The notes: generated by a model from the sequence alone, not told the origin. 64,000 bases of DNA from Bacteroidota bacterium (GCA_035524335.1 DATKPE010000033.1:36157-100156); one strand, 5' to 3'. Shown: positions 1,275-61,245, numbered from the stretch's first letter. Numbers and translations are program-made.

Positions 1275-1319
1275 GCGCGGATTGGAATTGCGCCGGGCGG
1301 TTCGTATCTTTCCGGCGTC

Positions 1320-1739
1320 ATGCAGGCCTCGTTTTCCCTTGTGGAGCATCCATCCGATCTGGGGATTGAAGCACGCGGCGCCACACCGGCCGAGGCGTTT
1401 GAACAGGCCGCCTGCGGCCTCATCGCGGTCATCCTCGATCCTGCCACCGTCGTGAAGAACGAAAAGCGCAGTATTGAGGTCGAAGCCGCGGATATGGGAC
1501 AGCTTCTCGTCCGCTGGCTCTCCGAACTTCTCTATCTCTACGATGCGAAACATTTTATCGCCGGTTCGATCAGGATCGAACAGCTCGGCGACCGATCCCT
1601 CCGCGCGAGCGTGTGGGGCGAACAATACCGGCCGCCGCGCGCCGGCACCAGGTGCGATGTGAAAGCCGTCACCTATCACCAGCTTTCCCTCCGCTCCGAC
1701 ACGGACGGCACCGTTCTCCGCGTATTCCTCGATATCTGA
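1320..1739 (+). CDS. archease (RtcB activator/chaperone)
   Basis: 139 aa with archease-like N-terminus (FSLVEHPSDLGIEARGATPAEAFEQAA..) and sits immediately upstream of rtcB, which is the conserved archease-RtcB arrangement. Confidence 0.75.
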   Translation: MQASFSLVEHPSDLGIEARGATPAEAFEQAACGLIAVILDPATVVKNEKRSIEVEAADMGQLLVRWLSELLYLYDAKHFIAGSIRIEQLGDRSLRASVWGEQYRPPRAGTRCDVKAVTYHQLSLRSDTDGTVLRVFLDI

Positions 1740-6200: not shown

Positions 6201-6774
6201 GTCGGGGCCACCCCTCGAGGAGCTGGTCTCGGAGGTGGTAGATTCTCATCCTCCCCCGGAAAGTGGCCGCAGGGAGGAGTATATCAGGGAAGCGGTTCGC
6301 CAGGTGGGGAATTTTGTCACATCCCCCGCCGGTGAAGCGATCCTCAACGCAAAGCGATTCAATACTGAATTTTCGCTAACGACCGTACTGGGCGAGGATT
6401 ACCTGACCGGAACGATCGACCGGCTGTACGAAGCGGGGGATGGCAGATGGGCAGTCGTCGATTACAAGACCGACGCCGTGACAGAGCGCGAACTGCGGAA
6501 ACGGGCGGAGGGGTATAAAATTCAACTTGAAATTTACGCTCTCCTGGTGAGTCTGTTCCATGGTCAGCCGGAGGTTGATGCGACGATTCTCTTTCTCCGC
6601 CACACGGGCCGGCCGGTTCAATTTCATTTCGGCCCTACGGAGCTGACAGCCATTAAGGAAAAAATTTCGGCGATCATAACGGACATCAAATCGGGACGCT
6701 TCACGCAGGATTTCCGGCATTGTCCGGAATGCAGTTTTTCGGTCAAGGGCGGCTGTATTCTAAATCCCTCCTGA
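3229..6774 (+). CDS. UvrD/REP-family ATP-dependent helicase with C-terminal PD-(D/E)XK (RecB/Cas4-like) nuclease domain and Cys4 cluster (AddA-like helicase-nuclease)
   Basis: Walker A ANAGAGKT (helicase motif I), DEFQDTN (motif II), IHGAKGLEFPVVFL (motif V) and YVGVTRARD (motif VI). The C-terminus has IDRLYE...VVDYKTD (RecB nuclease motifs II/III) and cysteines in YLECPAKF...HCPECSFSVKGGC (C-Xn-CxxC-X5-C, an AddB/Cas4-like Fe-S arrangement). Confidence 0.8.
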   Translation: MLTDRQRQALALDRHLSVTANAGAGKTKVLVERFLQIVLGTDTPINQVVAITFTEKAAGELRARIAQEIRASIATAGNGRERSKREQVRDTLAEATICTIHAFCAQILREYPVEAGIDAGFSILEGIDQHFLLDEAYRDAVADIFAEGGTVKSAFSLLCRSLGVGTAERFIRSLLANREQLLQWNENLFTPGGDDASILQKWNSLADDALLGLLGTPGLGETMHRLAASASGRKGSALLPFLRDFDARSDPAAGTAAILGFIDLYFTKQMEPRKEVAGNPAGGSPADISLLKDIAAPLRELAPDPDDGPGNGRLLQLTRILVEVALRVSERYARKKYDGGYLDFDDLQLHLRDMLRKPESRSLISRKYRFLMIDEFQDTNHLQYEIIRLLMDDFRQGNLFIVGDPKQSIYGFRNAEVEVFEQSKRDIGGGDAPETAGIILAESFRLLPALTSFTNRVFSALMAPESRFDVGYNELVCARQAPLEGSVELLLSHGSGETSRREAAMQEARLITQRLIRLHSEGQPIAGPEGLRPFRWSDAAVLLRKRTHMDEIEEAFRTAGIPFTLAGGRGFYQSQEIYDILNYLTFLLNREDDVALAGILRSPLFAISDRVLFSVAANGGKESLWAKIIRNGDRAPLPDPLRRAVDILKIDLALANRIPISDLIRGICRSTGWYGTLSGLDRGAQAIANIEKLLAISRDFESRGFLTLYDFVGRIKFLADEEEQEGQAPFESTDDVVHLMTIHGAKGLEFPVVFLPYLHHPFQYDRQLFLDPTVGAGFRIPDEENMEEVVEPRLYRYLKIKSVQKTDAEEKRIFYVGVTRARDMLILSGAVTEKESAKSCLRWLYTSLDIDGQSLTTGSLTLPPVPLKRLEMSGAAATDENYVLRIDVTAGAGDTRPPVSAQKLPEPRPARPVVLSPIGGQRQGEYFAATQIRTYLECPAKFYLKYVLGIPERGSRPADFDEHEEPDDRLRGEILGTIIHHVLEQLTDANRSGPPLEELVSEVVDSHPPPESGRREEYIREAVRQVGNFVTSPAGEAILNAKRFNTEFSLTTVLGEDYLTGTIDRLYEAGDGRWAVVDYKTDAVTERELRKRAEGYKIQLEIYALLVSLFHGQPEVDATILFLRHTGRPVQFHFGPTELTAIKEKISAIITDIKSGRFTQDFRHCPECSFSVKGGCILNPS

Positions 6775-7060: not shown

Positions 7061-9478
7061 ATGAATTCACCTCAAAAATACGAAGAGATACTCGAAGGTA
7101 TTTCGGGCGGATTTTTCGCATTGGACAGTGAATACCGGTTCACGTACTGGAACCGTGCGGCGGAGGAAGGTACGGGGCTCAAGCGTGAGGATGTGCTCGG
7201 AAAGAACGTGTTTGAGATTTTTCCGAATGCCAGGGATGCCGAGCTCGGTGAGAAGTACCGCACCGCGATGACGAAGAAATCGTTCCAGAGCATCGAGACA
7301 TCCTATCGCGACGAGCGGTTCGAGGCGTGGTACGACATCCGGGTCTACCCGACCGACAGCGGGATTTCCGTTTTCTTCCAGGACATCACCGAGCAGAAGC
7401 GACAGCAGAGGCAGAAGGAAATGCTGATGGAGGTGTCGCACGTCATCAACGTCGCACCGCATCTCGACGATCTTTGTCTCAACGCGGGCGAACGGATCGC
7501 CGCGTTTCTGGAAATCCCCTCCAAGTTCGTCTGCATCTACCGGTACGACCAGCGTTCCTCACTTCTCCACCTGATGGCGCCCTCGCTTCTCGATGTCCGG
7601 ATCGACCCGGAGGTGGAGCACCAGATCGTGGATGAGAAATCGACGACGATCGCCGTACAGACCGCCCTGGGCAAGAAGACCATCGTGACCGACGAGCTCT
7701 CGCGGAGTTCGATCGCCTCCTACTTTCTGACGGAGACGACGTCCCTGAACCTGAAGACGCTCATTTCCCTCCCCCTCCTCGTCCAGAATGAACTCCAGGG
7801 CGTGCTCGAAGTTCTGTCTCCCAAAGTCGACAAGTACGTCGACGAAGAGCTCAAAATGCTCTCCATCATCGCGAACGAACTTTCGATCGGCATGAGCCGG
7901 AAACGGCTCATGGACGAGATCACGATCAAGAACATCGAGCTCGAAAACGAGAAGAAACGGACAGACGACGCCAACGAGACGCTCAAGCGCTTCCTGGCGA
8001 CCTTCAGCCACGAACTCCGGGCTCCCCTCAACGCCATCGTCGGCTTCTCCGAGATCCTCACGAACGACCTGAGCATCCTCCCCGAGGCGAAGGTGAGCGA
8101 TTTCATGAAGAACATCCATGAAAGCGGAAAGCACCTGCAGGGACTGATCAACGACATCCTCGACCTGTCGAAGATCGAGGCGGGGAAAATGGAGCTCCAC
8201 GTCGAAGCCTATCCGATATCGTACTTTACGGAAAGCGTCGCCCGGGTCATGCAGTCGCTTCTCCACCAGAAACATGCCGAACTGAAATTCGACATTGCCC
8301 CGGAAATCGATCAATTGGTGGTCGACCAGACGAGATTCAAGCAAATTCTGGTCAATCTGGTCTCCAACGGCATTAAATACAGCAATCAGGGGGGTACGGT
8401 CACGGTCTCCATGCGTCGGTTCGTGAACGAAATCGAAATCGCCGTCATCGATACCGGCATCGGCATCAAGCCGGAGGACCTTCCCCGCCTGTTCCACGCG
8501 TTCCAACAGGGGAAGAACGCCCACGGGTCCAAGGAAGGGACAGGCCTCGGCCTGGTCATCACAAAACGGCTTGTCGAGCTCCACGGCGGTCAGATCACCG
8601 TCGAGAGCGAATGGGGGAAGGGGGCCACGTTCCGTTTCCGGATCCCGATGGTGGTTGCCGGCGAGGTCGTCGAATCAGCCGATCAGCTCCTCAGGGTTGT
8701 GAACGATCAGCAGGTCACGACGAAGGAGGGGGAAAAACCGCTCGTGCTGATCATCGAGGATAACCCGCAGGCCAGCCAGCTGATCCAGATGTACCTGCAG
8801 GAGGCGGGATACAGAACGGATACCGCCCGGGACGGTTCGGAGGGAATTGAAAAGGCGAAACGGCTCAAGCCGCACATCATCACGCTCGACATGATCATGC
8901 CGATCAAGGACGGCTGGCAGGTCCTGAAGGAACTGAAACGGCACCCGATCTGCAAGGATATTCCGATCATCATTATTTCGATCACGGACGAGAAAAAACT
9001 CGGCTTCAGCATGGGCGCGGTCGATTATTTCGTCAAGCCGGTGAACCGCGATGAACTGATCAAGGCGGTACAGCGGGTCCCCCTCCGGACGGTCAAGAAC
9101 AAGGATCATCCGAAAGTGCTCATCATCGACGACGACAAGACCGCCGCCGAGCTGATCCAGGTCATCCTCGAATCGGAAGGGTATGAAGTCATCAAATCGA
9201 TGCACGGGAAGGAAGGGGTGCACCTCGCCGCCTCGGAAAAACCCGACCTGATCATCCTCGACCTGATCATGCCCGATATTTCCGGCTTCAACGTCGCCTA
9301 TCAGCTGAAGCAACAGCAGTCGACCCGGAACGTTCCGATCATCATTCTCACCTCGATGGAGATCGACGAGGAGACGCGCGAGCAGATGCAGGGATTCATC
9401 TCCACGATCATGAGCAAATCCCGGTTTACGAAGAAGGACCTCCTCCGCGAAATCACCACCATCGAAAAGATGAAGTAG
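7061..9478 (+). CDS. hybrid sensor histidine kinase (PAS - GAF-like - HisKA - HATPase_c - REC - REC)
   Basis: PAS-like N-terminus (FALDSEYRFTYWNRAAEEGTGLKREDVLGKNVFEIFP), H-box FLATFSHELRAPLNAIVGFSE, N/G boxes (LVSNGIKYS, DTGIGI, GTGLGL), and two receiver domains (LIIEDNP...ITLDMIMP and VLIIDDD...IILDLIMP). Confidence 0.85.
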   Translation: MNSPQKYEEILEGISGGFFALDSEYRFTYWNRAAEEGTGLKREDVLGKNVFEIFPNARDAELGEKYRTAMTKKSFQSIETSYRDERFEAWYDIRVYPTDSGISVFFQDITEQKRQQRQKEMLMEVSHVINVAPHLDDLCLNAGERIAAFLEIPSKFVCIYRYDQRSSLLHLMAPSLLDVRIDPEVEHQIVDEKSTTIAVQTALGKKTIVTDELSRSSIASYFLTETTSLNLKTLISLPLLVQNELQGVLEVLSPKVDKYVDEELKMLSIIANELSIGMSRKRLMDEITIKNIELENEKKRTDDANETLKRFLATFSHELRAPLNAIVGFSEILTNDLSILPEAKVSDFMKNIHESGKHLQGLINDILDLSKIEAGKMELHVEAYPISYFTESVARVMQSLLHQKHAELKFDIAPEIDQLVVDQTRFKQILVNLVSNGIKYSNQGGTVTVSMRRFVNEIEIAVIDTGIGIKPEDLPRLFHAFQQGKNAHGSKEGTGLGLVITKRLVELHGGQITVESEWGKGATFRFRIPMVVAGEVVESADQLLRVVNDQQVTTKEGEKPLVLIIEDNPQASQLIQMYLQEAGYRTDTARDGSEGIEKAKRLKPHIITLDMIMPIKDGWQVLKELKRHPICKDIPIIIISITDEKKLGFSMGAVDYFVKPVNRDELIKAVQRVPLRTVKNKDHPKVLIIDDDKTAAELIQVILESEGYEVIKSMHGKEGVHLAASEKPDLIILDLIMPDISGFNVAYQLKQQQSTRNVPIIILTSMEIDEETREQMQGFISTIMSKSRFTKKDLLREITTIEKMK

Positions 9479-10721: not shown

Positions 10722-11630
10722 ATGTCGCTCCTCCTGGTGCTGGCGATTACCGCATTTCTGTTCCTCGCCACGGTGACGCTCATTCTTCTCCTCATCGGCC
10801 CGACACTTCTTCTCCGGCCGAAGCGCCGGCGGGCCGACTATTACCGCTCTATGGGCGCCCCGGCACACCCGGACGATCTCGGACTCCCCTCCGAATCGCT
10901 CCTGATCGGGACGGACGACGGGCTCACCCTGAACGCATGGCTCATCCCGGGAGCGGAACCGGTCCGGGGTACCATTCTCTACCTGCACGGGGTCGGCGAC
11001 TGCCGGATCGACGGGTTGCGCGCCGCAAAACTTTTCCATGACCACCATTATACCTCCGTCCTCTTCGATTCGAGGCGCCACGGAGAGAGCGGCGGCAGAT
11101 TCTGCACCTACGGGTATTACGAAAAGATCGACGTCATGAGGGTGATCGATCAGGTTCTCAAACGCAGTCCGGGCCCCCGCCCGCAGGTCGGACTCTTTGG
11201 AACATCGATGGGCGCCGCCGTGGCCCTCCAGGCCGCAGCCATCGACCCGCGGATCGCCGCGGTGGCGGCGGAGAACTCCTTCGCAACCCTCCGGTCGATT
11301 TTCGACGATTATCAGAAACGGATGATCAAACTTCCGTTCCATTACCTCAGAAACCTGGTCATCGTCCGCTCCGAATTCCTCGCCGATTTCAAGGCGAGCG
11401 ATGTTTCACCCCTCGACGCCGTTGGACGGATCCGGATCCCCCTGCTCATCGCGTACAGTGAACACGACGTCCGCATCCGGCCCGGGTATTCCCGGCAGAT
11501 CTACGCGGCCGCCCGCGGACCCAAGACGCTTCTTCCGATCGCGAACGCCCAGCACAACAACACGTGGGATTCGGGCGGCGAGAGCTACCACACTGCGATC
11601 CTCGATTTTTTCTCCCGCGCCCTGCAATGA
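10722..11630 (+). CDS. alpha/beta-fold hydrolase with N-terminal membrane anchor
   Basis: N-terminal TM helix. HGVGDCRIDG (oxyanion-hole HGxG-like), nucleophile elbow GTSMGAAVAL (GxSxG), and later D/H residues (SEHDVR..., AQHNN). Its stop overlaps the start of the next gene (ATGA). Confidence 0.7.
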   Translation: MSLLLVLAITAFLFLATVTLILLLIGPTLLLRPKRRRADYYRSMGAPAHPDDLGLPSESLLIGTDDGLTLNAWLIPGAEPVRGTILYLHGVGDCRIDGLRAAKLFHDHHYTSVLFDSRRHGESGGRFCTYGYYEKIDVMRVIDQVLKRSPGPRPQVGLFGTSMGAAVALQAAAIDPRIAAVAAENSFATLRSIFDDYQKRMIKLPFHYLRNLVIVRSEFLADFKASDVSPLDAVGRIRIPLLIAYSEHDVRIRPGYSRQIYAAARGPKTLLPIANAQHNNTWDSGGESYHTAILDFFSRALQ

Positions 11631-13906
11631 AAACCGTCGCCGCCGCCGCGCTCCTCCTGATCCTCTCAACCCCGGGCGCGGCAGGGGAACTCTTCTCCAC
11701 CGCACGGGCGTCTGAAACCGTCCGGCATCTCGCGGTCGACATAGGACCCCGCCCGATGGGATCTCCAGCCGAAGCCGCCGCCCTCCGCTTTGCCGCAGAT
11801 CAGTTCCGCGCGAACGGCTGTGACACCTCCTACATCATGCCGTTCGACTTTACCCACAAGGTCAACACCTCAAGCGGTATCGCGGTCGGCATCAAACGGG
11901 GAACCTCCGGTCGCATCATCGTCATCGGCGGCCACATCGACTCGAGCAGTCCGGAAGCCCCCGGCGCCGACGACGACGCCTCGGGCTCGGCCGTCGTTAT
12001 CGAGTGCTCCCGGGTGCTCGCGTCGTCCGTGCATGCCTCCACGATCGTCTTCTGCTGCTTCGGCGGGGAGGAACAGGATCTCTGCGGCTCCGAGTATTTC
12101 GCCGGACACTTCATCTCCATCGACAGCGTCACCCTCATGCTCCAGACCGACATGGCCAACGGTCTCGGCGTTCTGGACATCGATCCCGACGGCAGAGGCG
12201 GCATGAGCGCCCCTTCGTGGCTTGTTCGCGCTACGGTCGAGGAGTACCGGATCCTCGGCTATACGGCCCTCCGGTATCCGACCCACTTTTTTTCCCTGAA
12301 CTACGCGACCGGCTCCGGGGCCGGTTCTGACCATGAATCCTTCCTGGCCCGCGGGGTTCCCGCTATTGACTTTTCCACCGACATTGCAAGCCCCATCCAT
12401 ACACCGTGCGACAATATCGGAAATTTCGATCCCCGCGGCCTCGGCAGAACGGGCGAGCTCGTCCTCCGTCTCTTCAACCGGTTTGACGGCGGAGTCCCCT
12501 CCCGGTCGCCCGAGCGGTACTGGCTCTGGCTCGCCGGCCCTCTTGTGATCGTCCTTCCTGCCGGCGCACTCACTGCGCTACCCGTGCTAGCATTCCTCAC
12601 GGCTATCGCCGCATTTATCCGCCTCCGCAGGCAGGAACCGCCCGGGACACCCCGGGTGCGCTGGTCGTGTTTCAAGATCTGGCTGAGTTCGCTCATCCTC
12701 CTCAGCGCCGCAGTCTGTTCCGGCGACGTCGTCTCCCTCGTGCGTTCCGTCCGGTTTCCCTGGGTCACGAACGCAGGCGTCTACGTCCTGCTCGGGATCA
12801 GTTCGGCCGCCGTTCTGCTCCCGGTCTGGATTGTTCTTCTGAGGCGACTCCGGATTTCCCGCCGCCCTTCGGGGTATTTTCTGATTTCGGCCATCTCCCT
12901 GATTATCCTCACATTTCTCCTTTCGCTCCTGAACACAAAACTCGGCATCGAACCGGCGGCGGCTCTTCTTCTGCTGTCGCTTGCCGTCCTCGTTCCCTGG
13001 CCGGGGGTCAAAATTTCTCTCGCGCTCCTCGCGCCCGTCTGGCCGTTTCGGCTGGTATTCTCCGAATGGCTGGTCCTGCTCCTCAGGTCGTTCGCCGCAT
13101 CCCCGGTCTCGAACTGGCCGGTCCGGAACACAACGTTCGTCATCCTTCTGAGTCTCCTGAGCCTTCCGTTCCTCACCGGAACCGTCGCACTGGCCCGCCA
13201 GTCGGATCAGGTCGCGCGTGCACTGCGCAGAATGGCTGGTCCGGTCGGGAACCGGTTCGCCCTCGCAGTCATGATCGCCATATACTCCTATCTTCTGTTT
13301 GTGCCGGTTTTCTCCCCACGCTGGGAGCGGGAGGTCAACGTTCGGGCCGCCGTTTCGCTCAATACCGGCGCTTGCGGTCTTTCGCTTGAGGGGAGTGAGT
13401 TTCTGGACGGCATCGGATACCGGACGGGAGATACGGAGGGCGTTGTGTCGGGGCGCTCAACGGTCAGGGACCTGCCGGTCCCAGAGTATTTCGACACAAC
13501 GTGGGTTCACATTGACCGGTCCGACACGCTTTCCCGGAACGGTGACGTCTGCCGGCACGCTGTCACGCTCAGAATGCATTTTCAGTTCAGACCGTACACC
13601 GTGGCGGTCCGTTACAGCGGCACCCTGAATCCCGGCCGGACGCTCCGATCGCCGTGGAAGTACAGCATGGAGAAAGAGAGCACAGCGGTGATGTCGTGGT
13701 ATTCCTTCCCGGATTCCGATCTGACGGTGCCTGTTTCGTGGGAAATGGGGGCGGGCGACAAACTCGTCGAACAGATTCAGGTGACCTTTGACCGGCTCCC
13801 CTGCCGGATCGGCCTGACCCGTCCGGTGACCTATTTCATACCGCGGACGATGTACAGCGGGCGATGGACGTACAGCGGTGATGCGTCGATGGCTTCGGGA
13901 CTATGA
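11627..13906 (+). CDS. M28-family zinc peptidase domain fused to a C-terminal polytopic membrane region
   Basis: Signal peptide MKTVAAAALLLILSTPGAAG. M28 metal-binding motifs GGHIDSSSP...DDDASGSAVVIE...GGEEQDLCGSEY. Residues ~300-540 are multiple hydrophobic helices. Start chosen at the internal ATG that overlaps the upstream stop; the track ORF begins earlier at 11564. Confidence 0.7.
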   Translation: MKTVAAAALLLILSTPGAAGELFSTARASETVRHLAVDIGPRPMGSPAEAAALRFAADQFRANGCDTSYIMPFDFTHKVNTSSGIAVGIKRGTSGRIIVIGGHIDSSSPEAPGADDDASGSAVVIECSRVLASSVHASTIVFCCFGGEEQDLCGSEYFAGHFISIDSVTLMLQTDMANGLGVLDIDPDGRGGMSAPSWLVRATVEEYRILGYTALRYPTHFFSLNYATGSGAGSDHESFLARGVPAIDFSTDIASPIHTPCDNIGNFDPRGLGRTGELVLRLFNRFDGGVPSRSPERYWLWLAGPLVIVLPAGALTALPVLAFLTAIAAFIRLRRQEPPGTPRVRWSCFKIWLSSLILLSAAVCSGDVVSLVRSVRFPWVTNAGVYVLLGISSAAVLLPVWIVLLRRLRISRRPSGYFLISAISLIILTFLLSLLNTKLGIEPAAALLLLSLAVLVPWPGVKISLALLAPVWPFRLVFSEWLVLLLRSFAASPVSNWPVRNTTFVILLSLLSLPFLTGTVALARQSDQVARALRRMAGPVGNRFALAVMIAIYSYLLFVPVFSPRWEREVNVRAAVSLNTGACGLSLEGSEFLDGIGYRTGDTEGVVSGRSTVRDLPVPEYFDTTWVHIDRSDTLSRNGDVCRHAVTLRMHFQFRPYTVAVRYSGTLNPGRTLRSPWKYSMEKESTAVMSWYSFPDSDLTVPVSWEMGAGDKLVEQIQVTFDRLPCRIGLTRPVTYFIPRTMYSGRWTYSGDASMASGL

Positions 13907-21559: not shown

Positions 21560-22972
21560 ATGGATACTTTCGAATTCGACGATACCGAACACCGGGACGA
21601 TTTCGATCAGAACAAAAGCGACGACGAACAGATTCAGCGCCTGCAGGAACACCTCCACGACCAGGGCTTTCTGAATATCGAGTCGCTCGAGGAAATCATC
21701 AATTATTACTTCGAAAAGGAACGGTTCGAAGATGCGCTCCATTTCACCTCCCTTCTGCTCGAACACCTGCCGTTCAATGCCGACGCATGGCAGAGAAAAG
21801 GGATCATCCTCAATCATCTTCAACGGCATGAGGAGGCGCTCGCCTGCTTCGACAAGGCGCTGGCGCTCAATCCCGTCGACGCCGAACTCTTTCTGAACCG
21901 GGGCATCGCGCTGGAACACCTCGGCCGCTATGAGGAAGCCCTCGCATCGCTCGACAAGCTCCTCGAACTCGATTCCTTCAATGAGGACGGACTCTTCAGC
22001 AAGGGGATCGTGTTCGAAAAGCTCGAGCGGTTCCCCGAGGCGATCGGGATATTCCAGTATCTCCTCGACATCACCCCCCAGCACAAGGACGCCCTCTACG
22101 AGCTCGGCTACTGTTACGACTGTTCGAACAACCTCGAGGAGGCCCTCCGCTGTTACGAACGCCACCTCGACCTCGATCCGTTCAACTACAACGCCTGGTA
22201 CAACCGCGGCATCGTCCTGAACCGGCTCGCCCGCTATTCCACCTCGATCGAGAGCTACGACCTCGCCATCGCGCTCCGGCCGGAGTTCACCGCCGCCTGG
22301 TACAACAAGGGAAACGCCTTCGCCAACCTCGGCAGACTGCACGACGCGATCCACTGCTACCGCGAAACGCTCCGCATCGACGTGAAGGACATCCCCGCCT
22401 GGCATAATCTGGGCAACGCCTACGAGGAACTCGGCCTCTTCACGGAGGCGATCAAGTGCTTCACCCAGGCGATCAAATTTGATCCGACCCATTACGAATC
22501 GTACTTCGGCCGCGGGAGCTGTTACGATTCCCTCGCCCAGCACCGGAAGGCCTACAACGACTACAACAAGGCGCTCACCCTCTGCAAAACCTATCCCGAA
22601 CTCTGGTACGCGAAGGCCGACGCGGCCTATAATCTCGGAAAGTGGAAGGAAGCGCTCTACAGCTACCGGATGACGGTCCGCTTCGATCCCGCCAATACCG
22701 AAGCCTGGTTCGACCTCGGCGAAACACTACTCGAATACGGATATTTCAAGGAAGCCCTCAAATCGTTCAACAAATGCATCGAACTGGAACCGAAGTGGTC
22801 CGATCCCCACTACAGCAGGGCCAAGGTTCTCTTTCTCATGCGCAAGACGTTCGATGCCATCGAATCCCTCAAGACATCCTTCCAGCTCGACCCGCTCAAG
22901 AAAAACATGTTCGAACAGGAGTTTCCCGGCGTCCACTCGCTTTCGGAATTCACCCGCATCCTGAAAAAGTAG
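21560..22972 (+). CDS. tetratricopeptide-repeat (TPR) protein
   Basis: About 12 consecutive 34-aa TPR units (e.g. AWYNRGIVLNRLARYSTSIESYDLAIALRPEFTAAWYNKGNAF...). Start is ambiguous: 21506 in the track or 21560, the first Met of the protein-like region. Confidence 0.75.
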   Translation: MDTFEFDDTEHRDDFDQNKSDDEQIQRLQEHLHDQGFLNIESLEEIINYYFEKERFEDALHFTSLLLEHLPFNADAWQRKGIILNHLQRHEEALACFDKALALNPVDAELFLNRGIALEHLGRYEEALASLDKLLELDSFNEDGLFSKGIVFEKLERFPEAIGIFQYLLDITPQHKDALYELGYCYDCSNNLEEALRCYERHLDLDPFNYNAWYNRGIVLNRLARYSTSIESYDLAIALRPEFTAAWYNKGNAFANLGRLHDAIHCYRETLRIDVKDIPAWHNLGNAYEELGLFTEAIKCFTQAIKFDPTHYESYFGRGSCYDSLAQHRKAYNDYNKALTLCKTYPELWYAKADAAYNLGKWKEALYSYRMTVRFDPANTEAWFDLGETLLEYGYFKEALKSFNKCIELEPKWSDPHYSRAKVLFLMRKTFDAIESLKTSFQLDPLKKNMFEQEFPGVHSLSEFTRILKK

Positions 22973-22998: not shown

Positions 22999-23859
22999 AT
23001 GAACCGGGACCTAGAAGAGAAATATCTCCATCTGCAGTCGATTCTCCGTTCGATGGACTCCCTCGTCATCGGCTATTCCGGCGGGGTCGACAGCACACTC
23101 CTCCTGAAGGTCGCCGCCGACGTCCTGGGCGCCCGCGCACTCGCCGTCATCGGAAAATCCGAAACCTATCCGACCCGCGAATACGAGGAGGCGGTGAAGG
23201 TCGCCGCGGAGATCGGCGCCCGTGTGGCGGAAGTCCGGACCGAGGAAACCGACAACCTCAAATTCCGGGAGAACCCGGCCGACAGATGTTACTACTGCAA
23301 GACGGAACTTTTTTCGAAACTCCGCGCAATTGCGGCCGAACGATCGATCCGGTGGATCGCCGACGGCACCATCGTCGACGACCTGTCCGACTTCCGGCCC
23401 GGCATGCTGGCGCGGTCGGAGCAGGAAGTCCGCTCGCCGCTCCTCGAGGCCGGATTCCGGAAGCAGGATGTCCGCGATCTCTCCCGGGAACTCAACCTGC
23501 CGACCTGGAACAAGGGCTCATTCGCCTGTCTCTCCTCCCGCTTTCCGTACGGGACGGGGATCACGAAGGAGAATCTTTCCCGGGTCGACCGGGCGGAATC
23601 GCTCTTCCGCGACAACGGTTTCCGGCATTTCCGGGTCCGACAGCATGATGAACACACCGCCAGGATCGAAGTGGGTCCCGAGGAGATCGGGCGCCTGTTC
23701 GAGGGGGAACTGCGGACGGCGATCGTCGCGCGCCTGAAGGAGCTCGGCTTCACCTATGTGACCCTCGATCTGCAGGGATACCGCACCGGCTCGATGAACG
23801 AGGTTCTGCCGCAGGACCCTCACGGGACCGCGGGCGGCACTGCGCCGCTCCCGGCGTAA
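22999..23859 (+). CDS. larE: LarE-family ATP-dependent sacrificial sulfur transferase / PP-loop ATP pyrophosphatase (TIGR00268-like)
   Basis: PP-loop SGGVDST near the N-terminus, CYYCK, and the LarE-type motif SFACLSSRFPYG (Ser-x-Cys-Leu-Ser-Ser-Arg). Track ORF 22642.. extends upstream through arginine-rich non-protein-like sequence, so the start is set at MNRDLEEKY. Confidence 0.75.
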   Translation: MNRDLEEKYLHLQSILRSMDSLVIGYSGGVDSTLLLKVAADVLGARALAVIGKSETYPTREYEEAVKVAAEIGARVAEVRTEETDNLKFRENPADRCYYCKTELFSKLRAIAAERSIRWIADGTIVDDLSDFRPGMLARSEQEVRSPLLEAGFRKQDVRDLSRELNLPTWNKGSFACLSSRFPYGTGITKENLSRVDRAESLFRDNGFRHFRVRQHDEHTARIEVGPEEIGRLFEGELRTAIVARLKELGFTYVTLDLQGYRTGSMNEVLPQDPHGTAGGTAPLPA

Positions 23860-23927
23860 CATTCCGCCCCGGGAACTCTGCGGGATTCCGGATGGTTTAA
23901 CGATTATTGATGACAAGGATCGATCCG

Positions 23928-26900
23928 ATGAAACGTGCCGCTGTACTGCTGTTCTGTTCCCTCGCGGTTCTGTTTTCCTCCGCCTCCGCCCAGGATACCC
24001 AGTTCGGTCAGAATAAGGTCCAGTACCGCGAATTCGAATGGTACTACATCCAGTCGAACCACTTCGACGTCTATTACAGTCTCGGCGGGGAACAGCTGGC
24101 GGCCTTCGCGGCCGATATCGCCGAATCCTCCTACGCGCGGATCAGCGCGTCGTTCCGCTACCAGATCACGAACCGGATCGCCATCGTGGTCTATAATTCG
24201 CACAACGACTTTCAGCAGACGAACGTCGTGAATTCCTATCTCGAGGAAGGCATCGGCGGCGTGACCGAAATGTTCAAGAACCGGGTCGTCCTTCCCTTCG
24301 AGGGGGACTACAAGAAATTCCGGCACGTCATTCACCACGAACTCGTCCATGCCGTCATCAACGACATGTTCTACGGCGGGTCGATCCAGTCGATCATCAC
24401 AAACAACATCACGCTCCAGCTTCCCCTCTGGTTCAACGAGGGGCTGGCGGAATACGAGTCGCTTCACTGGGATACGAACTCCGACATGTTCCTGCGCGAC
24501 GCCGCCCTGCACGAGTATCTCCCGCCGATCAACCGGCTGGACGGGTATTTCGCCTACCGCGGAGGCCAGTCGGTCTGGAACTATATCGCGACCAAGTACG
24601 GGGAGCAGAAGATCTCGGAAATCCTGATGCGCATCAGGAGCTCGCACAATGTGGACCAGGGATTCCGCGCGGCGATCGGGCTCAACGTCGAGGAGCTCTC
24701 TGAGCGCTGGCAGAAGGAGCAGAAAGTGCTCTACTGGCCGGATATCGCAAAACGGACGGAGGCGGAGGATTATGCGAAGCGCCTCACCGATCACCGGAAG
24801 GACGGCAGTTTTTACAACACGAGCCCGGCTCTTTCTCCGGCCGGCGACCGGCTTGCCTTCATCTCCAATCCGGACGCCTACTTCGACGTCTATATCATGA
24901 GCGCCGCCGACGGTTCCTCGCGCGACAAGCTCATCAGCGGCCAGCGCACGCCCGACTTTGAGGAGCTCCACCTTCTGACGCCCGGCATGTCGTGGTCCCC
25001 CGACTCCCGCTTTCTCGCCCTTGCGGCGAAAAGCAGTGACCAGGACGCCATCATCATAAAAAATGTCCAGAACGGCGACGAACAGAAGATTGAACTCGGC
25101 CTCGACGGCATCTTCTCGGTCAGCTGGTCGCCGGAGGGAACCGACTCCCTTCACCCGCGTCACCAGCTTGCCTTCATCGGACTCAAAAACGGCAGATCGG
25201 ACATCTACACCTACGATCTGGACTCGCACCGGCTCGAAAACCTCACGCACGATCCGTTCAGCGACGCCGACCCCTCCTGGTCCCCCGACGGCACGGCCAT
25301 CTATTTCTGCTCCGACCGCGGCGACAACCTGGACCCCGACCGCATCCCCGAAAACTTCAGGATGCAGCACTACGATTTTCACCAGCTCGATCTCTACCGG
25401 CTCGACCTCGCGACAAAAAAGATCTCCCGCCTGCTCCATCTTCCCCAAAGCGACGAGACGTCGCCCGTCGCCGCTCCGGACGGAAAACACCTCCTCTTCG
25501 TCTCCGACCTGAACGGGATCAACAACATCTATGCGCTCTCGCTCGACAGCGGGACCTACCGGCCGCTCACCAATTCCATCAGCGGTGTCTACCAGCTCTC
25601 CCTCTCGAAAGACGGGACAAAACTGGCCTTCAGCTCGCTCGTCTACGCCGGCTTCGACCTCTTCATCCTCCGGAATCCCCTCGATCAGAAAACGCCCCTC
25701 GCATCGCTCGAACCGACGGAGTTCCTCCGGCAGCTTTCGCTCCGGCCCGCCCCCAGGCATGACGACGCCGGCCATCCGGACAGCGTCGCCATCGCGGATG
25801 ATGTCGTGATCAGAACCGACACCCACGATACCAGCGGCGTCTTCGGCAACGCCGTGAAGCTCGACCTCCGCAATTATGTCTTCAACGACAACTACCGCGA
25901 CCGGAAGGAACGGAAACCGGACACCGCGAGGTTCCCCCTTGCCGCGCATAATATCGATTCCCTCGGAAATTACGTGCCGACGAAATACAAGCTGAATTTT
26001 TCAACCGACATCGTCTACGGTAACGCCGGTTATAACACCTTCTACGGCGTCCAGGGATCGACCATCATGGCGTTCAGCGACATGCTGGGCAACCATCAGA
26101 TCTACCTCCTCACCGATCTCTACTTCGATTTCAAGAACAGCAACCTCGCGCTTGCGTACATGTACCTCCCCAAGAGGATCGATTACGGCATCCAGATCTT
26201 TCACAGCGCAAGATTCCTCTACCTGGACGACGATACGCTCGGCGAGCATCTCTACCGCTTCCGCAATTACGGTCTGACCGGGATGGCGTCGTACCCCATC
26301 AATAAATTCAACCGCTGGGAGGGATCCCTCTCCTGGTTCAACATCTCGCGGGAAAACATGGATATCCTGGACGAGCCCGCACAGACCCGGACAGTAATCC
26401 TCCCGTCGGTCAGCTACGTCCACGACAACAGTCTCTGGGGGATGATTTCTCCCGACAACGGCGAGCGCTACAACTTCACCGCCATGGCAAGCCCGAAGAT
26501 TCTCGGCCTGTCGCTCGGGTTCACGAGCATCCTGGGCGACTACAGAAATTACTATCACCTCGGGAAGAACTACACCTTCGCGCTCCGCCTGGCGGCGGGC
26601 GGCAGTTTCGGTCCCGATCCCCAGCGCTTCGTGGTCGGCGGCGTCGACAACTGGATCAACCGGCAGTTCGAAGGAAACCACATTCCGATCGACAGCGCCG
26701 AGGATTTCGTGTTCCTCACCTCGGGCGTCCCGCTCCGCGGCTATAATTACAACGCCGAAATCGGAACGAAATACGGTCTGGTGAATCTCGAGATGCGATT
26801 CCCCTTCTTCGGATACTTTGCCGCCGGCCCGCTTCCCATCTTTTTCCAGAGTCTCTCGGGGGTCCTGTTTCTCGACGTCGGCGCCGCGTGGAATCACCGG

Positions 26901-27089
26901 AGCGACTTCAAGGCCTTCGACCGCGATGCGGGCGGCACGGTCTACATGCGGGATCTCCTGTCGGGAATGGGCTACGGCCTCCGGGTCGCTTTCCTCGGAT
27001 TTCTCCTCAAGATGGACGTGGCGTACGCCTACACGCTGAAGGAATTTTCGGACCCGAAATTTTACCTCTCCCTCGGACCCGATTTCTGA
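23928..27089 (+). CDS. large outer-membrane protein: signal peptide + HExxH metallopeptidase-like domain + TolB-like (PD40) beta-propeller repeats + C-terminal Omp85/surface-antigen beta-barrel
   Basis: Signal peptide MKRAAVLLFCSLAVLFSSASA. HVIHHELVHAVINDMFYGG...NEGLAEYES (zincin-like HExxH...E). Repeated PD40-like segments (SPAGDRLAFISNPDAYFDVYIM; SWSPDGTAIYFCSDRGDN; APDGKHLLFVSDLNGINNIY; SKDGTKLAFSS). The last ~400 aa show the Omp85 barrel pattern (QRFVVGGVDN...LRGYNYN...YTLKEFSDPKFYLSLGPDF). Confidence 0.7.
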   Translation: MKRAAVLLFCSLAVLFSSASAQDTQFGQNKVQYREFEWYYIQSNHFDVYYSLGGEQLAAFAADIAESSYARISASFRYQITNRIAIVVYNSHNDFQQTNVVNSYLEEGIGGVTEMFKNRVVLPFEGDYKKFRHVIHHELVHAVINDMFYGGSIQSIITNNITLQLPLWFNEGLAEYESLHWDTNSDMFLRDAALHEYLPPINRLDGYFAYRGGQSVWNYIATKYGEQKISEILMRIRSSHNVDQGFRAAIGLNVEELSERWQKEQKVLYWPDIAKRTEAEDYAKRLTDHRKDGSFYNTSPALSPAGDRLAFISNPDAYFDVYIMSAADGSSRDKLISGQRTPDFEELHLLTPGMSWSPDSRFLALAAKSSDQDAIIIKNVQNGDEQKIELGLDGIFSVSWSPEGTDSLHPRHQLAFIGLKNGRSDIYTYDLDSHRLENLTHDPFSDADPSWSPDGTAIYFCSDRGDNLDPDRIPENFRMQHYDFHQLDLYRLDLATKKISRLLHLPQSDETSPVAAPDGKHLLFVSDLNGINNIYALSLDSGTYRPLTNSISGVYQLSLSKDGTKLAFSSLVYAGFDLFILRNPLDQKTPLASLEPTEFLRQLSLRPAPRHDDAGHPDSVAIADDVVIRTDTHDTSGVFGNAVKLDLRNYVFNDNYRDRKERKPDTARFPLAAHNIDSLGNYVPTKYKLNFSTDIVYGNAGYNTFYGVQGSTIMAFSDMLGNHQIYLLTDLYFDFKNSNLALAYMYLPKRIDYGIQIFHSARFLYLDDDTLGEHLYRFRNYGLTGMASYPINKFNRWEGSLSWFNISRENMDILDEPAQTRTVILPSVSYVHDNSLWGMISPDNGERYNFTAMASPKILGLSLGFTSILGDYRNYYHLGKNYTFALRLAAGGSFGPDPQRFVVGGVDNWINRQFEGNHIPIDSAEDFVFLTSGVPLRGYNYNAEIGTKYGLVNLEMRFPFFGYFAAGPLPIFFQSLSGVLFLDVGAAWNHRSDFKAFDRDAGGTVYMRDLLSGMGYGLRVAFLGFLLKMDVAYAYTLKEFSDPKFYLSLGPDF

Positions 27090-60668: not shown

Positions 60669-60954
60669 AAGTAAAGACCGGGTACGAAGTCCGATCCCTC
60701 GTTTTGTTTAAATTTATCGCTTTTTTGAACAAATGTCAATAGCATTCGCAATTTTTTTTCTATATGCTCAAATCTGTGATTCGCAACACGCCATAATATT
60801 CGTGATATTTTTTCAGAATAAAATAGCAAAATTCTTGCGAATTTTCACATAATATCGTAACTTGTCCTTGGAGTTTTTCCCCTCATTACCCCTTTAATGC
60901 GAATATACAAAAATATTTTTCATAATCAATTAATTAAATCCGAGGAGAGTTACC
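60669..60954. promoter_or_regulatory. AT-rich divergent intergenic region with repeated octamer ATTCGCAA / TTGCGAAT
   Basis: 286 bp, visibly AT-rich. ATTCGCAA at 60744-60751 and 60779-60786, inverted TTGCGAAT at 60835-60842, and a 7/8 inverted copy ATGCGAAT at 60897-60904. SD-like GGAGAG precedes the downstream small ORF. Confidence 0.45.
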
Positions 60955-61197: not shown

Positions 61198-61245
61198 GGC
61201 ACGGCCCGCGGCATTTGCCGCGCGTTCGGTAACTCCATAATTGAT

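What the first reader, a model, noticed from the sequence alone, without database searches (positions are those of the whole stretch)
23928..27089. Omp85-type beta-barrel fused to an HExxH metallopeptidase-like domain and a TolB-like PD40 propeller instead of POTRA domains
Canonical Omp85/BamA/TamA proteins carry N-terminal POTRA domains. Here the roughly 650 residues in front of the barrel contain a zincin-like HHELVHAV...NEGLAEYE region and about six PD40/TolB-like repeats. A second Omp85-family protein, with a POTRA-like region, lies at the 5' window edge. This architecture suggests an outer-membrane-embedded protease or protein-capture module, and I cannot assign it to a characterised family.
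Basis: partly seen in the sequence, partly recalled or inferred. Interest (0 to 1): 0.55.

Follow-up and report, generated by a model that had tools for sequence, protein, structure and literature searches.

The report
Protease-and-propeller Omp85 outer-membrane protein
This gene encodes an outer-membrane barrel protein that carries a zinc protease and a TolB-like propeller instead of the usual POTRA domains; the design is real and widespread, was catalogued in 2014 as the "WD40-like Omp85" subfamily, and has never been tested functionally.

Summary
Window 23928-27089 (+) encodes a 1053-aa secreted protein with four parts:
- a gluzincin zinc-peptidase domain (HELVH, then NEGLAE)
- a six-bladed PD40/TolB-like propeller
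- a disordered tether of about 75 residues
- a 16-stranded Omp85 barrel with both Omp85 signature motifs

No POTRA domain is present.

It is not a new architecture. Heinz & Lithgow 2014 defined a "WD40-like Omp85" subfamily. Their supplementary table already lists BamA/TamA, TolB and M1/M9-peptidase fold matches for its members. A 2024 paper still calls the subfamily uncharacterised. An identical protein is in NCBI, from a Bacteroidota MAG. Relatives number in the thousands and keep the same length and domain order.

The peptidase ligands and the barrel motifs are invariant or nearly so, down to about 30% identity. The protein is therefore probably an active, outer-membrane-tethered, periplasm-facing metallopeptidase.

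One lead appears to be new. In other lineages the gene repeatedly sits beside outer-membrane biogenesis genes: tamB, a bamA-like gene, rseP, an lpxH-like gene and hldE-type genes. This suggests, but does not prove, a quality-control or processing role in outer-membrane assembly, like a BepA fused to its Omp85. This window itself shows no such linkage.

Verdict: a new member of a known but unstudied kind, of moderate interest.

The parts
23928..27089 (+). Complete CDS (1053 aa plus stop) of the peptidase-PD40-Omp85 protein
   Evidence: ORF list. Identical 1053-aa NCBI protein and gene calls on three contigs.
23928..23993 (+). Sec signal peptide (aa 1-22, MKRAAVLLFCSLAVLFSSASAQ), SPase I type. 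There is no lipobox: the residue before the Cys is Phe.
   Evidence: Read directly from the sequence. The classification is my inference; no signal-peptide predictor was run.
24039..24797 (+). Gluzincin (thermolysin-like, clan MA) metallopeptidase domain, aa 38-290
24249..24284 (+). Conserved loop GIGGVTEMFKNR (aa 108-119), just before the predicted edge strand. E114 and R119 are invariant. It may correspond to the M1 GxMEN substrate-N-terminus-binding motif.
   Evidence: Invariant columns in A1, A4 and A5. pLDDT is low. The GxMEN analogy and the spacing comparison rest on my knowledge of M1 enzymes and were not tested.
24336..24350 (+). HELVH zinc-binding and catalytic motif (H137, E138, H141)
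   Evidence: Invariant in 96 close and 50 diverse homologues. Coordinates.
24435..24452 (+). NEGLAE motif. E171 is the inferred third zinc ligand; E175 is the acidic residue at +4.
   Evidence: W168, E171, G172 and E175 are invariant in the diverse set. The motif lies on the helix that follows the HExxH helix in the model. The ligand assignment is by motif homology to gluzincins (my knowledge).
24810..25697 (+). Six-bladed PD40/TolB-like beta-propeller (aa 295-590)
   Evidence: Pfam PD40, E 2.6e-20. NCBIfam TolB propeller partial match, 135 bits. PDB sequence hits to TolB, E 1.6e-11. Foldseek TolB 2hqs, E 5e-13. pLDDT is about 85-94.
25698..25928 (+). Tether between propeller and barrel (aa 591-667). 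It is rich in Asp and Arg, variable in sequence and predicted disordered. There is no POTRA.
   Evidence: pLDDT <50 for aa 606-667. No consensus in these alignment columns. Composition. No POTRA hit.
25929..27086 (+). Omp85-type 16-stranded beta-barrel (aa 668-1053), ending in ...LGPDF
   Evidence: Pfam Omp85, E 1.2e-10. Foldseek TamA 4c00, E 3e-10; TamA barrel-only 8us4, TM 0.70; many BamA hits. DSSP shows 14 confident strands, and aa 676-721 has room for two more.
26730..26750 (+). Loop-6 signature PLRGYNY, the Omp85 (V/I)RG(Y/F) lid-lock motif, between strands 11 and 12
   Evidence: R937 and G938 are invariant in A1 and >=90% conserved in the diverse sets. The motif definition comes from PMC4490367 (abstract).
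26868..26882 (+). FLDVG, the Omp85 inner-wall (F/G)xDxG motif on strand 13
   Evidence: F981 and D983 are invariant in A1 and >=90% conserved in the diverse sets. Position.

Best explanation
The gene encodes a member of the WD40-like (PD40) Omp85 subfamily.

**Shown.**
- A Sec signal peptide is followed by a zincin domain and a six-bladed propeller. These are predicted as one compact module.
- A disordered tether of about 75 residues follows, then a canonical 16-stranded Omp85 barrel. The barrel keeps the loop-6 RGY lid-lock motif, the strand-13 FxDxG motif and a C-terminal aromatic residue.
- The catalytic residues are strictly conserved across the family.

**Inferred.**
- The barrel is inserted in the outer membrane. 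The N-terminal module stays in the periplasm, as every POTRA domain does and as the enzyme domain of PlpD does. The module hangs on a flexible leash.
- The propeller captures or filters unfolded polypeptide segments, and the zinc site cleaves them. Propeller-gated peptidases (S9 family, tricorn) work this way.

**Most speculative step.** The substrates are proteins in transit to, or stalled at, the outer membrane. The protein would then be a processing or quality-control protease of outer-membrane biogenesis. Functionally it would resemble BepA docked on BamA, but covalently fused to its own Omp85 barrel. It may act alongside TamB or BamA.

**My estimates.** Active membrane-tethered metallopeptidase: about 0.8. 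Periplasmic orientation: about 0.65. Role in outer-membrane biogenesis or quality control: about 0.35.
For: **Domains and folds.**

**Conservation.** H137, E138, H141, E171, G172, E175, E114, R119 and Y210 are invariant in 50 homologues of 29-48% identity. In the barrel, D718, Y744, P790, R796 and R873 are invariant, and R937, G938, F981 and D983 are >=90% conserved.

**Fixed architecture.** A search with the N-domain alone finds 931 clusters (50% identity) at E<=1e-30. Nearly all full-length hits are 930-1190 aa, with the domain at residues about 20-300. Pfam finds PD40 in 39 of 39 diverse members, Peptidase_MA_2 in 32 of 39 and Omp85 in 21 of 39.

**Model confidence.** Confidence stays high across the peptidase-propeller junction (pLDDT 76-93). 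It collapses only in the tether.

**Topology precedent.** The PlpD enzyme domain is periplasmic (PMC11116518).

**Gene context in relatives.**
- Ignavibacteria-type loci: 41 of 57 loci with >=5 kb of upstream sequence carry a TamB-like gene on the same strand within 3.5 kb upstream, 40 of them with RNase R in between. In the loci examined further upstream, the order is hldE-type kinase, adenylyltransferase, TamB-like, RNase R, X.
- A second, deeply diverged lineage: dxr, rseP, BamA-like Omp85, TamB, X, often followed by uvrD, in 9 loci.
- Three loci: rseP, X, uvrD. In L085 the full rpsB-to-rseP run is seen, so X sits where bamA sits in E. coli.
- A third arrangement: a divergent LpxH-like gene within 1.5 kb in 15 loci.
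- Overall, 25 of 45 diverse loci with >=5 kb upstream have TamB, RseP or the LpxH-like gene nearby.

**BepA precedent.** A zinc peptidase acting on stalled barrels at an Omp85 is described in PMC8423444 and PMC13478230.
Against: - No experiment exists for any member of the family.
- In this window the neighbours say nothing about the envelope. They are a TPR protein, a LarE-like ATPase and a convergent two-component system. No TamB or RNase R lies within the 64 kb.
- 20 of 45 diverse loci show none of the linked genes.
- In the Ignavibacteria arrangement an unrelated RNase R gene lies between tamB and X, so part of that linkage may be inherited synteny.
- The LpxH-like and BamA-like neighbours score below NCBIfam cutoffs.
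- Zinc-site geometry and the orientation of the active site relative to the propeller channel could not be inspected, because coordinates are not returned.
- The domain-only model was of low confidence (pLDDT 56.8).
- The first two barrel strands and the GxMEN-like loop are also of low confidence.
- Endopeptidase versus aminopeptidase activity is undetermined.
Confidence: 0.45

Rival explanations
1. General periplasmic peptidase that merely uses the barrel as an anchor. The Omp85 barrel is only a membrane anchor for an oligopeptide-degrading, possibly aminopeptidase-type, enzyme. The enzyme trims periplasmic peptides for nutrition or turnover and has no specific link to outer-membrane assembly.
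For: - The propeller resembles those of S9 peptidases and tricorn, which filter small peptides.
- The catalytic domain resembles M1 aminopeptidases, and it carries an invariant GxxTE loop at an LTA4H-like spacing from HExxH (the spacing rests on my knowledge).
- In this window, and in 20 of 45 diverse loci, no envelope-biogenesis neighbour is seen.
Against: - A plain anchor would not need to conserve the loop-6 RGY and strand-13 FxDxG lid-lock motifs, or several invariant barrel residues, over such divergence.
- Proximity to tamB, a bamA-like gene, rseP and an lpxH-like gene recurs in at least three different gene arrangements.
Confidence: 0.2
2. Type V-like self-export. The barrel translocates the N-terminal peptidase-propeller 'passenger' to the cell surface, with the tether lying in the pore. 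There it acts as a surface protease for protein foraging or for interactions with other cells. This is what was originally proposed for PlpD (type Vd).
For: - The layout of an N-terminal enzyme, a long unstructured linker and a C-terminal barrel mirrors autotransporters.
- Heinz & Lithgow raised translocation as a possibility for enzyme-bearing Omp85 proteins.
Against: - A 16-stranded barrel starts on the periplasmic side.
- The conserved loop-6 lid-lock implies an occluded lumen, as in BamA and TamA.
- The only tested precedent, PlpD, keeps its enzyme domain in the periplasm. Post-folding export was judged energetically unfavourable (PMC11116518).
- The neighbours are biogenesis genes, not nutrient-uptake genes.
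Confidence: 0.12
3. Non-proteolytic scaffold, the original 2014 suggestion. The propeller makes the protein a fused 'BamA plus BamB/TolB-like' platform. It recruits partners such as Pal-like lipoproteins, peptidoglycan-associated factors or BAM components. The zincin domain serves as a binding module.
For: - TolB is the best structural match of the propeller.
- Heinz & Lithgow's discussion proposes this.
- The barrel motifs are conserved.
Against: - Every catalytic residue of the zincin site (H, E, H, E, plus a candidate Tyr) is invariant down to about 30% identity. That is the signature of a working enzyme, not a degenerate binding domain.
- The TolB N-terminal TolA-binding domain is absent, and the TolB model scores 135 bits against a cutoff of 343.
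Confidence: 0.1
4. POTRA-less outer-membrane partner of TamB. Where no TamA or TamL gene lies beside tamB (the Ignavibacteria-type cluster), X is the Omp85 subunit of a variant translocation and assembly module for proteins or lipids. The peptidase would be an accessory activity.
For: - In the Ignavibacteria-type loci that were inspected, X is the only Omp85 gene near the TamB-like gene. A kinase and an adenylyltransferase lie upstream of tamB, and the POTRA-Omp85 model found no hit in the close set.
- TamB lies directly upstream of X in 9 loci of another lineage.
Against: - TamB is known to bind TamA through POTRA1 (my knowledge), and X has no POTRA.
- In the second lineage a POTRA-bearing Omp85 already precedes tamB.
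- RNase R lies between tamB and X in Ignavibacteria.
- In this window's genome the two genes are not linked.
Confidence: 0.1

Closest known systems
WD40-like Omp85 subfamily (Heinz & Lithgow 2014, Front Microbiol 5:370; PMC4104836)
   Same: The domain order is the same: PD40 repeats in front of a PF01103 barrel and no POTRA. The supplementary Table S3 lists, for each member, BamA/TamA barrel hits, TolB propeller hits and M1-aminopeptidase or collagenase hits. That matches here. By my recollection of the accession prefixes, the list includes Ignavibacterium and Melioribacter entries, and an Ignavibacterium album MAG carries a 56%-identical orthologue.
   Different: Nothing structural differs, so this protein is a member. 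The 2014 main text discusses only the propeller, as a BamA-BamB-like fusion. It does not discuss the peptidase domain, the conserved catalytic residues or the gene context.
PlpD / patatin-like Omp85 ('type Vd')
   Same: An enzyme domain is fused to the N-terminus of an Omp85 barrel. The enzyme domain has been shown to remain in the periplasm (PMC11116518).
   Different: PlpD keeps one POTRA domain and carries a lipase rather than a peptidase plus propeller. It forms homodimers. The two N-terminal modules are not homologous.
BepA (M48 zinc metallopeptidase with a TPR domain) acting at BAM
   Same: As proposed here, it is a periplasmic zinc peptidase that uses a non-catalytic repeat domain and works at an Omp85 machine. 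It rescues or degrades stalled barrel substrates (PMC8423444, PMC13478230).
   Different: It is not homologous: M48 versus MA_2/thermolysin-like, and TPR versus PD40. BepA is a soluble protein that docks on BamA, whereas here the peptidase is covalently fused to its own barrel. The functional parallel is a hypothesis only.
TolB (Tol-Pal system)
   Same: Its six-bladed PD40 propeller is the best sequence and structure match of aa 300-590.
   Different: TolB is soluble. It has an N-terminal alpha/beta domain for TolA and has neither a peptidase nor a barrel. The TolB equivalog model scores 135 bits against a cutoff of 343.
Gluzincin peptidases: M9 collagenases, M30 and M1 aminopeptidases (LTA4H, ERAP1, APN, tricorn factor F3)
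   Different: Sequence similarity is only remote: there is no PDB sequence hit, even with a profile. The protein lacks the M1 N-terminal beta domain and C-terminal ARM domain, and it lacks the M9 activator and accessory domains. It is assigned only to the generic Pfam family Peptidase_MA_2.
Propeller-gated proteases (tricorn, S9 family DPP-IV and acylaminoacyl peptidases)
   Same: A PD40-type propeller is joined to a peptidase domain. Precomputed Pfam hits to Tricorn_N, Tricorn_2nd and DPPIV_N fall on the propeller.
   Different: Their catalytic domains are serine hydrolases rather than zincins. They are soluble and have no membrane barrel.

Membership tests
Omp85 superfamily | C-terminal 16-stranded barrel that matches PF01103 above the gathering score | tested here: met
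   41.9 bits against a cutoff of 24. Foldseek hits to TamA and BamA, with TM 0.70 to a TamA barrel-only structure. 14 confident strands, plus room for two more in aa 676-721.
Omp85 superfamily | Loop-6 (V/I)RG(Y/F) motif and strand-13 (F/G)xDxG motif (PMC4490367) | tested here: met
   PLRGYNY at aa 935-941 lies between strands 11 and 12. FLDVG at aa 981-985 lies on strand 13. Both are conserved across the family.
Omp85 superfamily (classical definition) | [quoted passage not shown] | tested here: not met
   No POTRA hit at E<=1. aa 606-667 is disordered and variable. The 2014 classification defines the superfamily by the barrel alone, so this does not exclude membership.
WD40-like Omp85 subfamily (Heinz & Lithgow 2014) | PD40/WD40-like repeats N-terminal to the barrel, with TolB as the best structural match | tested here: met
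   The subfamily's domain strings (PF07676 repeated, then PF01103) appear in their Table S2.
WD40-like Omp85 subfamily (Heinz & Lithgow 2014) | Additional N-terminal aminopeptidase- or collagenase-like fold (their Table S3 column 'best aminopeptidase hit') | tested here: met
Gluzincin (clan MA(E)) metallopeptidase | HExxH on the active-site helix, plus a Glu third ligand on the following helix, in a thermolysin-like fold | tested here: met
Gluzincin (clan MA(E)) metallopeptidase | Zinc binding and peptide hydrolysis | not testable with these tools
   Needs biochemistry.
M1 aminopeptidase family | GxMEN exopeptidase motif, HExxH-x18-E spacing, N-terminal beta domain and C-terminal helical domain, and a match to PF01433 | tested here: not met
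   There is no PF01433 hit. The spacing is x29. The loop reads GGVTEM rather than GxMEN. The flanking M1 domains are absent.
TolB | Equivalog model TIGR02800 above its cutoff, and an N-terminal TolA-binding domain | tested here: not met
   135 bits against a cutoff of 343, and only the propeller part of the model matches.
BamA | TIGR03303 above its cutoff, and five POTRA domains | tested here: not met
   24.9 bits against a cutoff of 297. No POTRA.
TamA / TamL | Three POTRA domains, a family model above its cutoff, and a gene adjacent to tamB | tested here: not met
   TamL model: 23.4 bits against a cutoff of 400. No TamA hit is listed. No POTRA. There is no tamB in this window, although tamB is adjacent or near in many relatives.
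Type V (autotransporter-like) secretion | The N-terminal passenger is exported to the cell surface through, or with the help of, the C-terminal barrel | not testable with these tools
   Needs topology experiments. The precedent from PlpD argues against it.

The most novel reading that the evidence does not exclude
The protein would be the first proteolytic Omp85. It would be an outer-membrane 'degradase' or processing station, genetically tied to TamB and BamA. Its barrel would engage stalled or incoming beta-barrel or TAM substrates at its seam. Its own tethered propeller-zincin module would then cut them. In Ignavibacteria-type genomes it could also be the POTRA-less outer-membrane partner of TamB. 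This would be a built-in alternative to BepA for quality control in FCB-group and other non-proteobacterial diderms.
Probability: 0.18. Interest if true: 0.75.

Novelty: new member of a known kind. Interest (0 to 1): 0.4.

Why it matters
Every Omp85 protein studied so far either inserts or translocates proteins; PlpD is a lipase.

A large and ancient subfamily has replaced POTRA domains with a conserved, apparently active zinc peptidase and a propeller. There are at least several hundred species in one genome-per-species collection, and 931 clusters at 50% identity with strong matches. If it works as proposed, the Omp85 scaffold would have been reused for proteolysis at the outer membrane.

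Its repeated placement next to tamB, bamA-like, rseP, lpxH-like and hldE-type genes makes a role in envelope biogenesis or quality control directly testable. Suitable hosts would be tractable bacteria that carry orthologues. By my recollection of the 2014 accession list, these include myxobacteria and Cytophagia.

For this particular window the finding is an ordinary member of that family.

Tried and rejected
- **PDB sequence searches.** The whole protein found only TolB and S9 propellers. A 36-sequence profile of the peptidase domain found nothing meaningful. The peptidase assignment therefore rests on Pfam and on fold comparison.
- **afdb50 fold library.** It was not available, so I could not obtain a UniProt-based taxonomic spread.
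- **The listing of cluster members.** It returned no organism names for distant members.
- **Organism names for the 2014 accession list.** They are not in the held supplements. My accession-to-organism assignments are from memory.
- **Literature searches.** Searches for Omp85 with PD40, Peptidase_MA_2, Bac_surface_Ag, or propeller plus metallopeptidase found no functional study. The two TAM papers I searched contain no occurrence of WD40 or PD40.
- **Identities rejected.** TolB, BamA, TamA/TamL and M1 aminopeptidase all fail family cutoffs or defining features.
- **Operon partner in the window.** I found none. Upstream lie a TPR protein and a LarE-like gene; downstream lies a convergent histidine kinase and response regulator. 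This synteny is shared only with close relatives.
- **Paralogues and RNA genes.** The window holds no paralogue of the gene, no tRNA and no Rfam family.


Full report
**1. What is in the sequence**

The window carries one long ORF on the + strand, 23907-27089. It begins with a typical Sec signal peptide, MKRAAVLLFCSLAVLFSSASA|QD. There is no lipobox. An identical 1053-aa protein exists in NCBI as 'MAG TPA: BamA/TamA family outer membrane protein [Bacteroidota bacterium]'. Gene callers on three public contigs use the same start.

Pfam finds three domains above their gathering scores:
- Peptidase_MA_2, aa 68-263, E 3.6e-15
- PD40 repeats, E 2.6e-20
- Omp85, aa 840-1053, E 1.2e-10

NCBIfam adds a partial TolB-propeller match of 135 bits against a cutoff of 343. 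It also gives weak BamA, TamL and Omp85 matches, all far below their cutoffs. No POTRA hit appears even at E<=1.

The quoted motifs sit at aa 136-143 (HHELVHAV) and aa 170-177 (NEGLAEYE). The second Omp85 at the 5' edge is real. Window 3-1271 (+) is a truncated Omp85 with one visible POTRA, and its best family match is BamA.

**2. Structure**

An AlphaFold2 model was built from 96 homologues (mean pLDDT 75.7). It shows four regions:
- A helical domain with a small sheet (aa 38-290, pLDDT mostly 85-94). HExxH lies on helix 128-149, and NEGLAE lies on the next long helix, 167-179.
- A propeller of 22-24 strands, that is six blades (aa 300-590, pLDDT about 85-94). It follows the first domain without any drop in confidence.
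- A disordered segment (aa 606-667, pLDDT <50). It is rich in Asp and Arg and has no consensus in the alignment.
- A barrel (aa about 668-1053).

Fourteen barrel strands are confidently predicted. The 46 residues at 676-721 are of low confidence but highly conserved, and they can hold two more strands.

With that numbering, the PLRGYNY motif (aa 935-941) falls in the long loop between strands 11 and 12. FLDVG (aa 981-985) falls on strand 13. These are the positions of the two Omp85 signature motifs, the loop-6 lid-lock and the inner-wall motif (PMC4490367, seen). The chain ends in ...LGPDF. A terminal aromatic residue is usual for BAM substrates (my knowledge).

Foldseek against the PDB returns:
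- TolB for the propeller (2hqs, E 5e-13)
- TamA and BamA for the barrel (4c00, E 3e-10; barrel-only TamA 8us4, TM 0.70)
- S9-peptidase propellers and tricorn

- M61

**3. Is the peptidase likely to be active?**

Two alignments were examined: 96 close homologues (59-84% identity) and 39-50 diverse representatives (29-49% identity). The following residues are invariant in both:
- H137, E138, H141
- P166, W168, E171, G172, E175
- E114, R119
- Y210, G213

E171 lies in an 'NE' motif on the helix after HExxH. An acidic residue follows four positions later. Thermolysin's NExxSD and the M1 family's LNEG motif are built the same way (my knowledge of those families). On this basis E171 is the inferred third zinc ligand.

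The His-to-Glu spacing is 29 residues, which is closer to M9 than to M1 (my knowledge).

The invariant loop GIGGVTEMFKNR lies just before the predicted edge strand. Its Glu is 23 residues before HExxH. This is reminiscent of the GxMEN motif of M1 enzymes, where the spacing is 24 in LTA4H (my knowledge). Aminopeptidase activity is therefore possible, but the loop has low model confidence and I leave the endo-versus-exo question open.

Strict conservation of the whole catalytic set argues for a working enzyme. It argues against the purely scaffolding role suggested in 2014.

**4. How common is it, and is the architecture fixed?**

- The whole protein finds 6347 clusters (90% identity) at E<=1e-5 among the candidates scored. 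The top 120 are all about 1040-1100 aa.
- The peptidase domain alone finds 3956 clusters (50% identity) at E<=1e-3 and 931 at E<=1e-30. The listed full-length hits are almost all 930-1190 aa, with the domain at residues about 20-300. Shorter hits look like fragments.
- Among 39 diverse members, Pfam detects PD40 in 39, Peptidase_MA_2 in 32 and Omp85 in 21. The barrel columns align with conserved residues in all of them.
- In a one-genome-per-species collection, two strict peptide patterns alone recovered at least 584 loci. The best 80 are Bacteroidota, Ignavibacteria and Kryptonia MAGs, including Ignavibacterium album.

**5. What is already known**

Heinz & Lithgow (2014, PMC4104836) divided the Omp85/TpsB superfamily into ten subfamilies. 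One is 'WD40-like', with domain strings of repeated PF07676 followed by PF01103. For each member, their supplementary Table S3 lists three kinds of hit:
- a BamA or TamA barrel hit
- a TolB hit
- a 'best aminopeptidase hit', namely 1z5h, 4kxd, 3qnf or 4fgm, or the collagenases 4ar1 and 4ar9

This is the same triad I obtained. [quoted passage not shown]

Their separate 'Metallo' subfamily carries PF00149. Pfam describes PF00149 as a calcineurin-like phosphoesterase. The WD40-like group is therefore the one that actually bears a peptidase.

Hanson et al. (2024, PMC11116518) state that the WD40-like subfamily remains uncharacterised. They also show that the enzyme domain of PlpD, the one studied enzyme-bearing Omp85, stays in the periplasm.

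I found no functional study of this subfamily in the searchable library.

The architecture is therefore catalogued, and this gene is an ordinary member of it.

**6. Gene context**

In this window the neighbours are uninformative:
- Upstream on the same strand lie a TPR protein (21560-22972) and a LarE-like PP-loop ATPase (22999-23859).
- Downstream lie a convergent histidine kinase and response regulator, then TRAP-transporter genes.

Only close relatives share parts of this arrangement.

Relatives tell a different story.

(a) *Ignavibacteria-type loci.* Among loci 49-68% identical to the window protein, 57 have >=5 kb of upstream sequence. Of these, 41 carry a TamB-like gene on the same strand within 3.5 kb upstream, 40 of them with RNase R in between. 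The TamB-like gene is about 1385 aa, matches NCBIfam TamB at E 4e-26 and hits DUF748/AsmA. In the loci examined further upstream, the order is:
1. heptose-7-phosphate kinase
2. heptose-1-phosphate adenylyltransferase (both hldE-type and above their NCBIfam cutoffs)
3. TamB-like gene
4. RNase R
5. X

(b) *A deeply diverged lineage.* Here X is about 28-35% identical to the window protein, and the TamB proteins are only about 30% identical to each other. Nine loci read dxr, rseP, BamA-like POTRA-Omp85, TamB (PF04357), X, often followed by uvrD. The TamB-to-X gaps are 50-245 bp.

(c) *The bamA slot.* Three loci read rseP, X, uvrD. In L085, the one with the full upstream run, the order is rpsB, tsf, pyrH, frr, (fdx), uppS, cdsA, dxr, rseP, X. 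X therefore sits exactly where bamA sits in E. coli K-12.

(d) *An LpxH-like neighbour.* Fifteen further loci have a gene within 1.5 kb of X, most of them immediately upstream and divergently transcribed, whose best family match is LpxH. It scores 83-102 bits, which is below the cutoff of 134.

Overall, 25 of 45 diverse loci with >=5 kb of upstream sequence have TamB, RseP or the LpxH-like gene nearby.

The two TAM papers I searched contain no occurrence of WD40 or PD40.

Several caveats apply:
- Loci within a lineage are not independent.
- RNase R interrupts the Ignavibacteria cluster.
- 20 of 45 diverse loci show none of the linked genes.
- The window itself has no TamB within 64 kb.

I treat the linkage as a real but moderate pointer towards outer-membrane biogenesis.

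**7. Most likely mechanism**

The shown facts are these:
- a secreted protein
- a rigid zincin-propeller module
- a flexible tether of about 75 residues
- a canonical Omp85 barrel with an intact lid-lock
- conserved catalytic residues

The inferences are these:
- The barrel is inserted in the outer membrane.
- The chain enters strand 1 from the periplasmic side, so the module hangs in the periplasm. POTRA domains do this, and so does the PlpD enzyme domain.
- The propeller selects unfolded segments, and the zinc site cleaves them. S9 peptidases and tricorn work this way.

From gene context, and from the BepA precedent (PMC8423444, PMC13478230), I propose that the substrates are proteins in transit to, or stalled at, the outer membrane. 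The protein would be a fused Omp85-protease for processing or quality control, possibly acting with TamB or BamA.

My probabilities:

| Claim | Probability |
|---|---|
| Active tethered metallopeptidase | about 0.8 |
| Periplasmic orientation | about 0.65 |
| Role in biogenesis or quality control | about 0.35 |

The rivals are:
- a general periplasmic oligopeptidase that is merely anchored by the barrel
- surface display by type V-like self-export
- a non-catalytic TolB- or BamB-like scaffold
- a POTRA-less outer-membrane partner of TamB

Each is listed with evidence and refutation tests in the rival section.

**8. Verdict**

The protein belongs to the catalogued WD40-like Omp85 subfamily, which has not been studied experimentally. 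It is not TolB, BamA, TamA/TamL or an M1 aminopeptidase, because all of these fail family cutoffs or defining features.

This work adds two things to the 2014 catalogue. The first is the strict conservation of a complete gluzincin active site together with both Omp85 signature motifs. The second is the recurrent placement of the gene next to tamB, bamA-like, rseP, lpxH-like and hldE-type genes in several arrangements.

Novelty: new member of a known kind. Interest: moderate, 0.4. The family is an attractive and testable target, but this locus is a typical member and offers no special context.

Noticed in passing
Related loci L009-L083, e.g. L022:1370-5527 (TamB-like), L073:5826-7925 (RNase R), L112:1116-2788 (hldE-type genes): In Ignavibacteria-type genomes the gene lies in a conserved same-strand block: heptose-7-P kinase, heptose-1-P adenylyltransferase, TamB-like (about 1385 aa), RNase R, then the peptidase-PD40-Omp85 gene. 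41 of 57 loci with enough upstream sequence carry TamB-like, 40 of them with RNase R in between. No other Omp85 gene was detected next to this tamB.
   Followed up: yes
L086:56-13398, L088:250-13579, L089, L090, L093, L094, L102, L130, L137; also L085:1-13767, L092, L132: A deeply diverged lineage has dxr, rseP, BamA-like POTRA-Omp85, TamB, X, often followed by uvrD. Three loci have rseP, X, uvrD; in L085 the full rpsB-to-rseP run shows X occupying the position bamA has in E. coli (rpsB-tsf-pyrH-frr-dxr-ispU-cdsA-rseP-bamA).
   Followed up: yes
L110, L113, L114, L120, L121:337-1113(-), L123, L124, L127, L128, L133, L146, L153; L084:13760-14482(-): In another set of distant loci a protein of about 240-260 aa is encoded within 1.5 kb of X, in most of them immediately upstream and divergently transcribed. 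It is a calcineurin-type phosphoesterase whose best family match is LpxH (lipid A synthesis), though it scores below the cutoff.
   Followed up: partly
window 3-1271 (+), 1275-1736 (+), 1749-3188 (+): A 5'-truncated Omp85 with one visible POTRA (best match BamA, 106 bits) is followed directly by an ORF matching NCBIfam PRK00407 (archease-like by my recollection) and by RtcB RNA ligase. It is only distantly similar to the BamA-like Omp85 of L088 (25% identity).
   Followed up: partly
window 24249-24284 (aa 108-119) and 25950-26096 (aa about 675-723): Two segments are almost invariant across the family yet have very low AF2 confidence. One is the GIGGVTEMFKNR loop next to the active site. The other is the stretch that should form barrel strands 1-2 (YKLNFSxD...FSDMLGNH). 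They may be mobile functional elements, for example a substrate-binding loop and a lateral-gate region.
   Followed up: partly
Heinz & Lithgow 2014 (PMC4104836), 'Metallo' subfamily: The paper calls the PF00149-bearing Omp85 group 'metalloproteases'. Pfam describes PF00149 as a calcineurin-like phosphoesterase. The subfamily that really carries a metallopeptidase domain is the WD40-like one. A free-standing PF00149 (LpxH-like) gene is also a recurrent neighbour of X.
   Followed up: partly
window 3229-6774 (+): A 1181-aa UvrD-type helicase fused to a PD-(D/E)XK nuclease (AddA-like). A plain uvrD is a recurrent downstream neighbour of X in other lineages, but here it lies 17 kb away.
   Followed up: no
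window 11564-13906 (+) and 7061-9478 (+): A 780-aa protein with an M28 peptidase domain, and an 805-aa hybrid sensor kinase with PAS, GAF, HisKA, HATPase and receiver domains.
   Followed up: no
window 60001-62000: GC drops to 0.51 against about 0.59 elsewhere, around an apparent gap between ORFs at about 60670-61345. No tRNA or Rfam family was found anywhere in the window.
   Followed up: partly
window 23907-23927: The mechanical ORF starts at a TTG 21 nt upstream of the ATG and would add MMTRIDP. Public gene calls and the NCBI protein use the ATG at 23928, which places the signal peptide at the N-terminus.
   Followed up: partly
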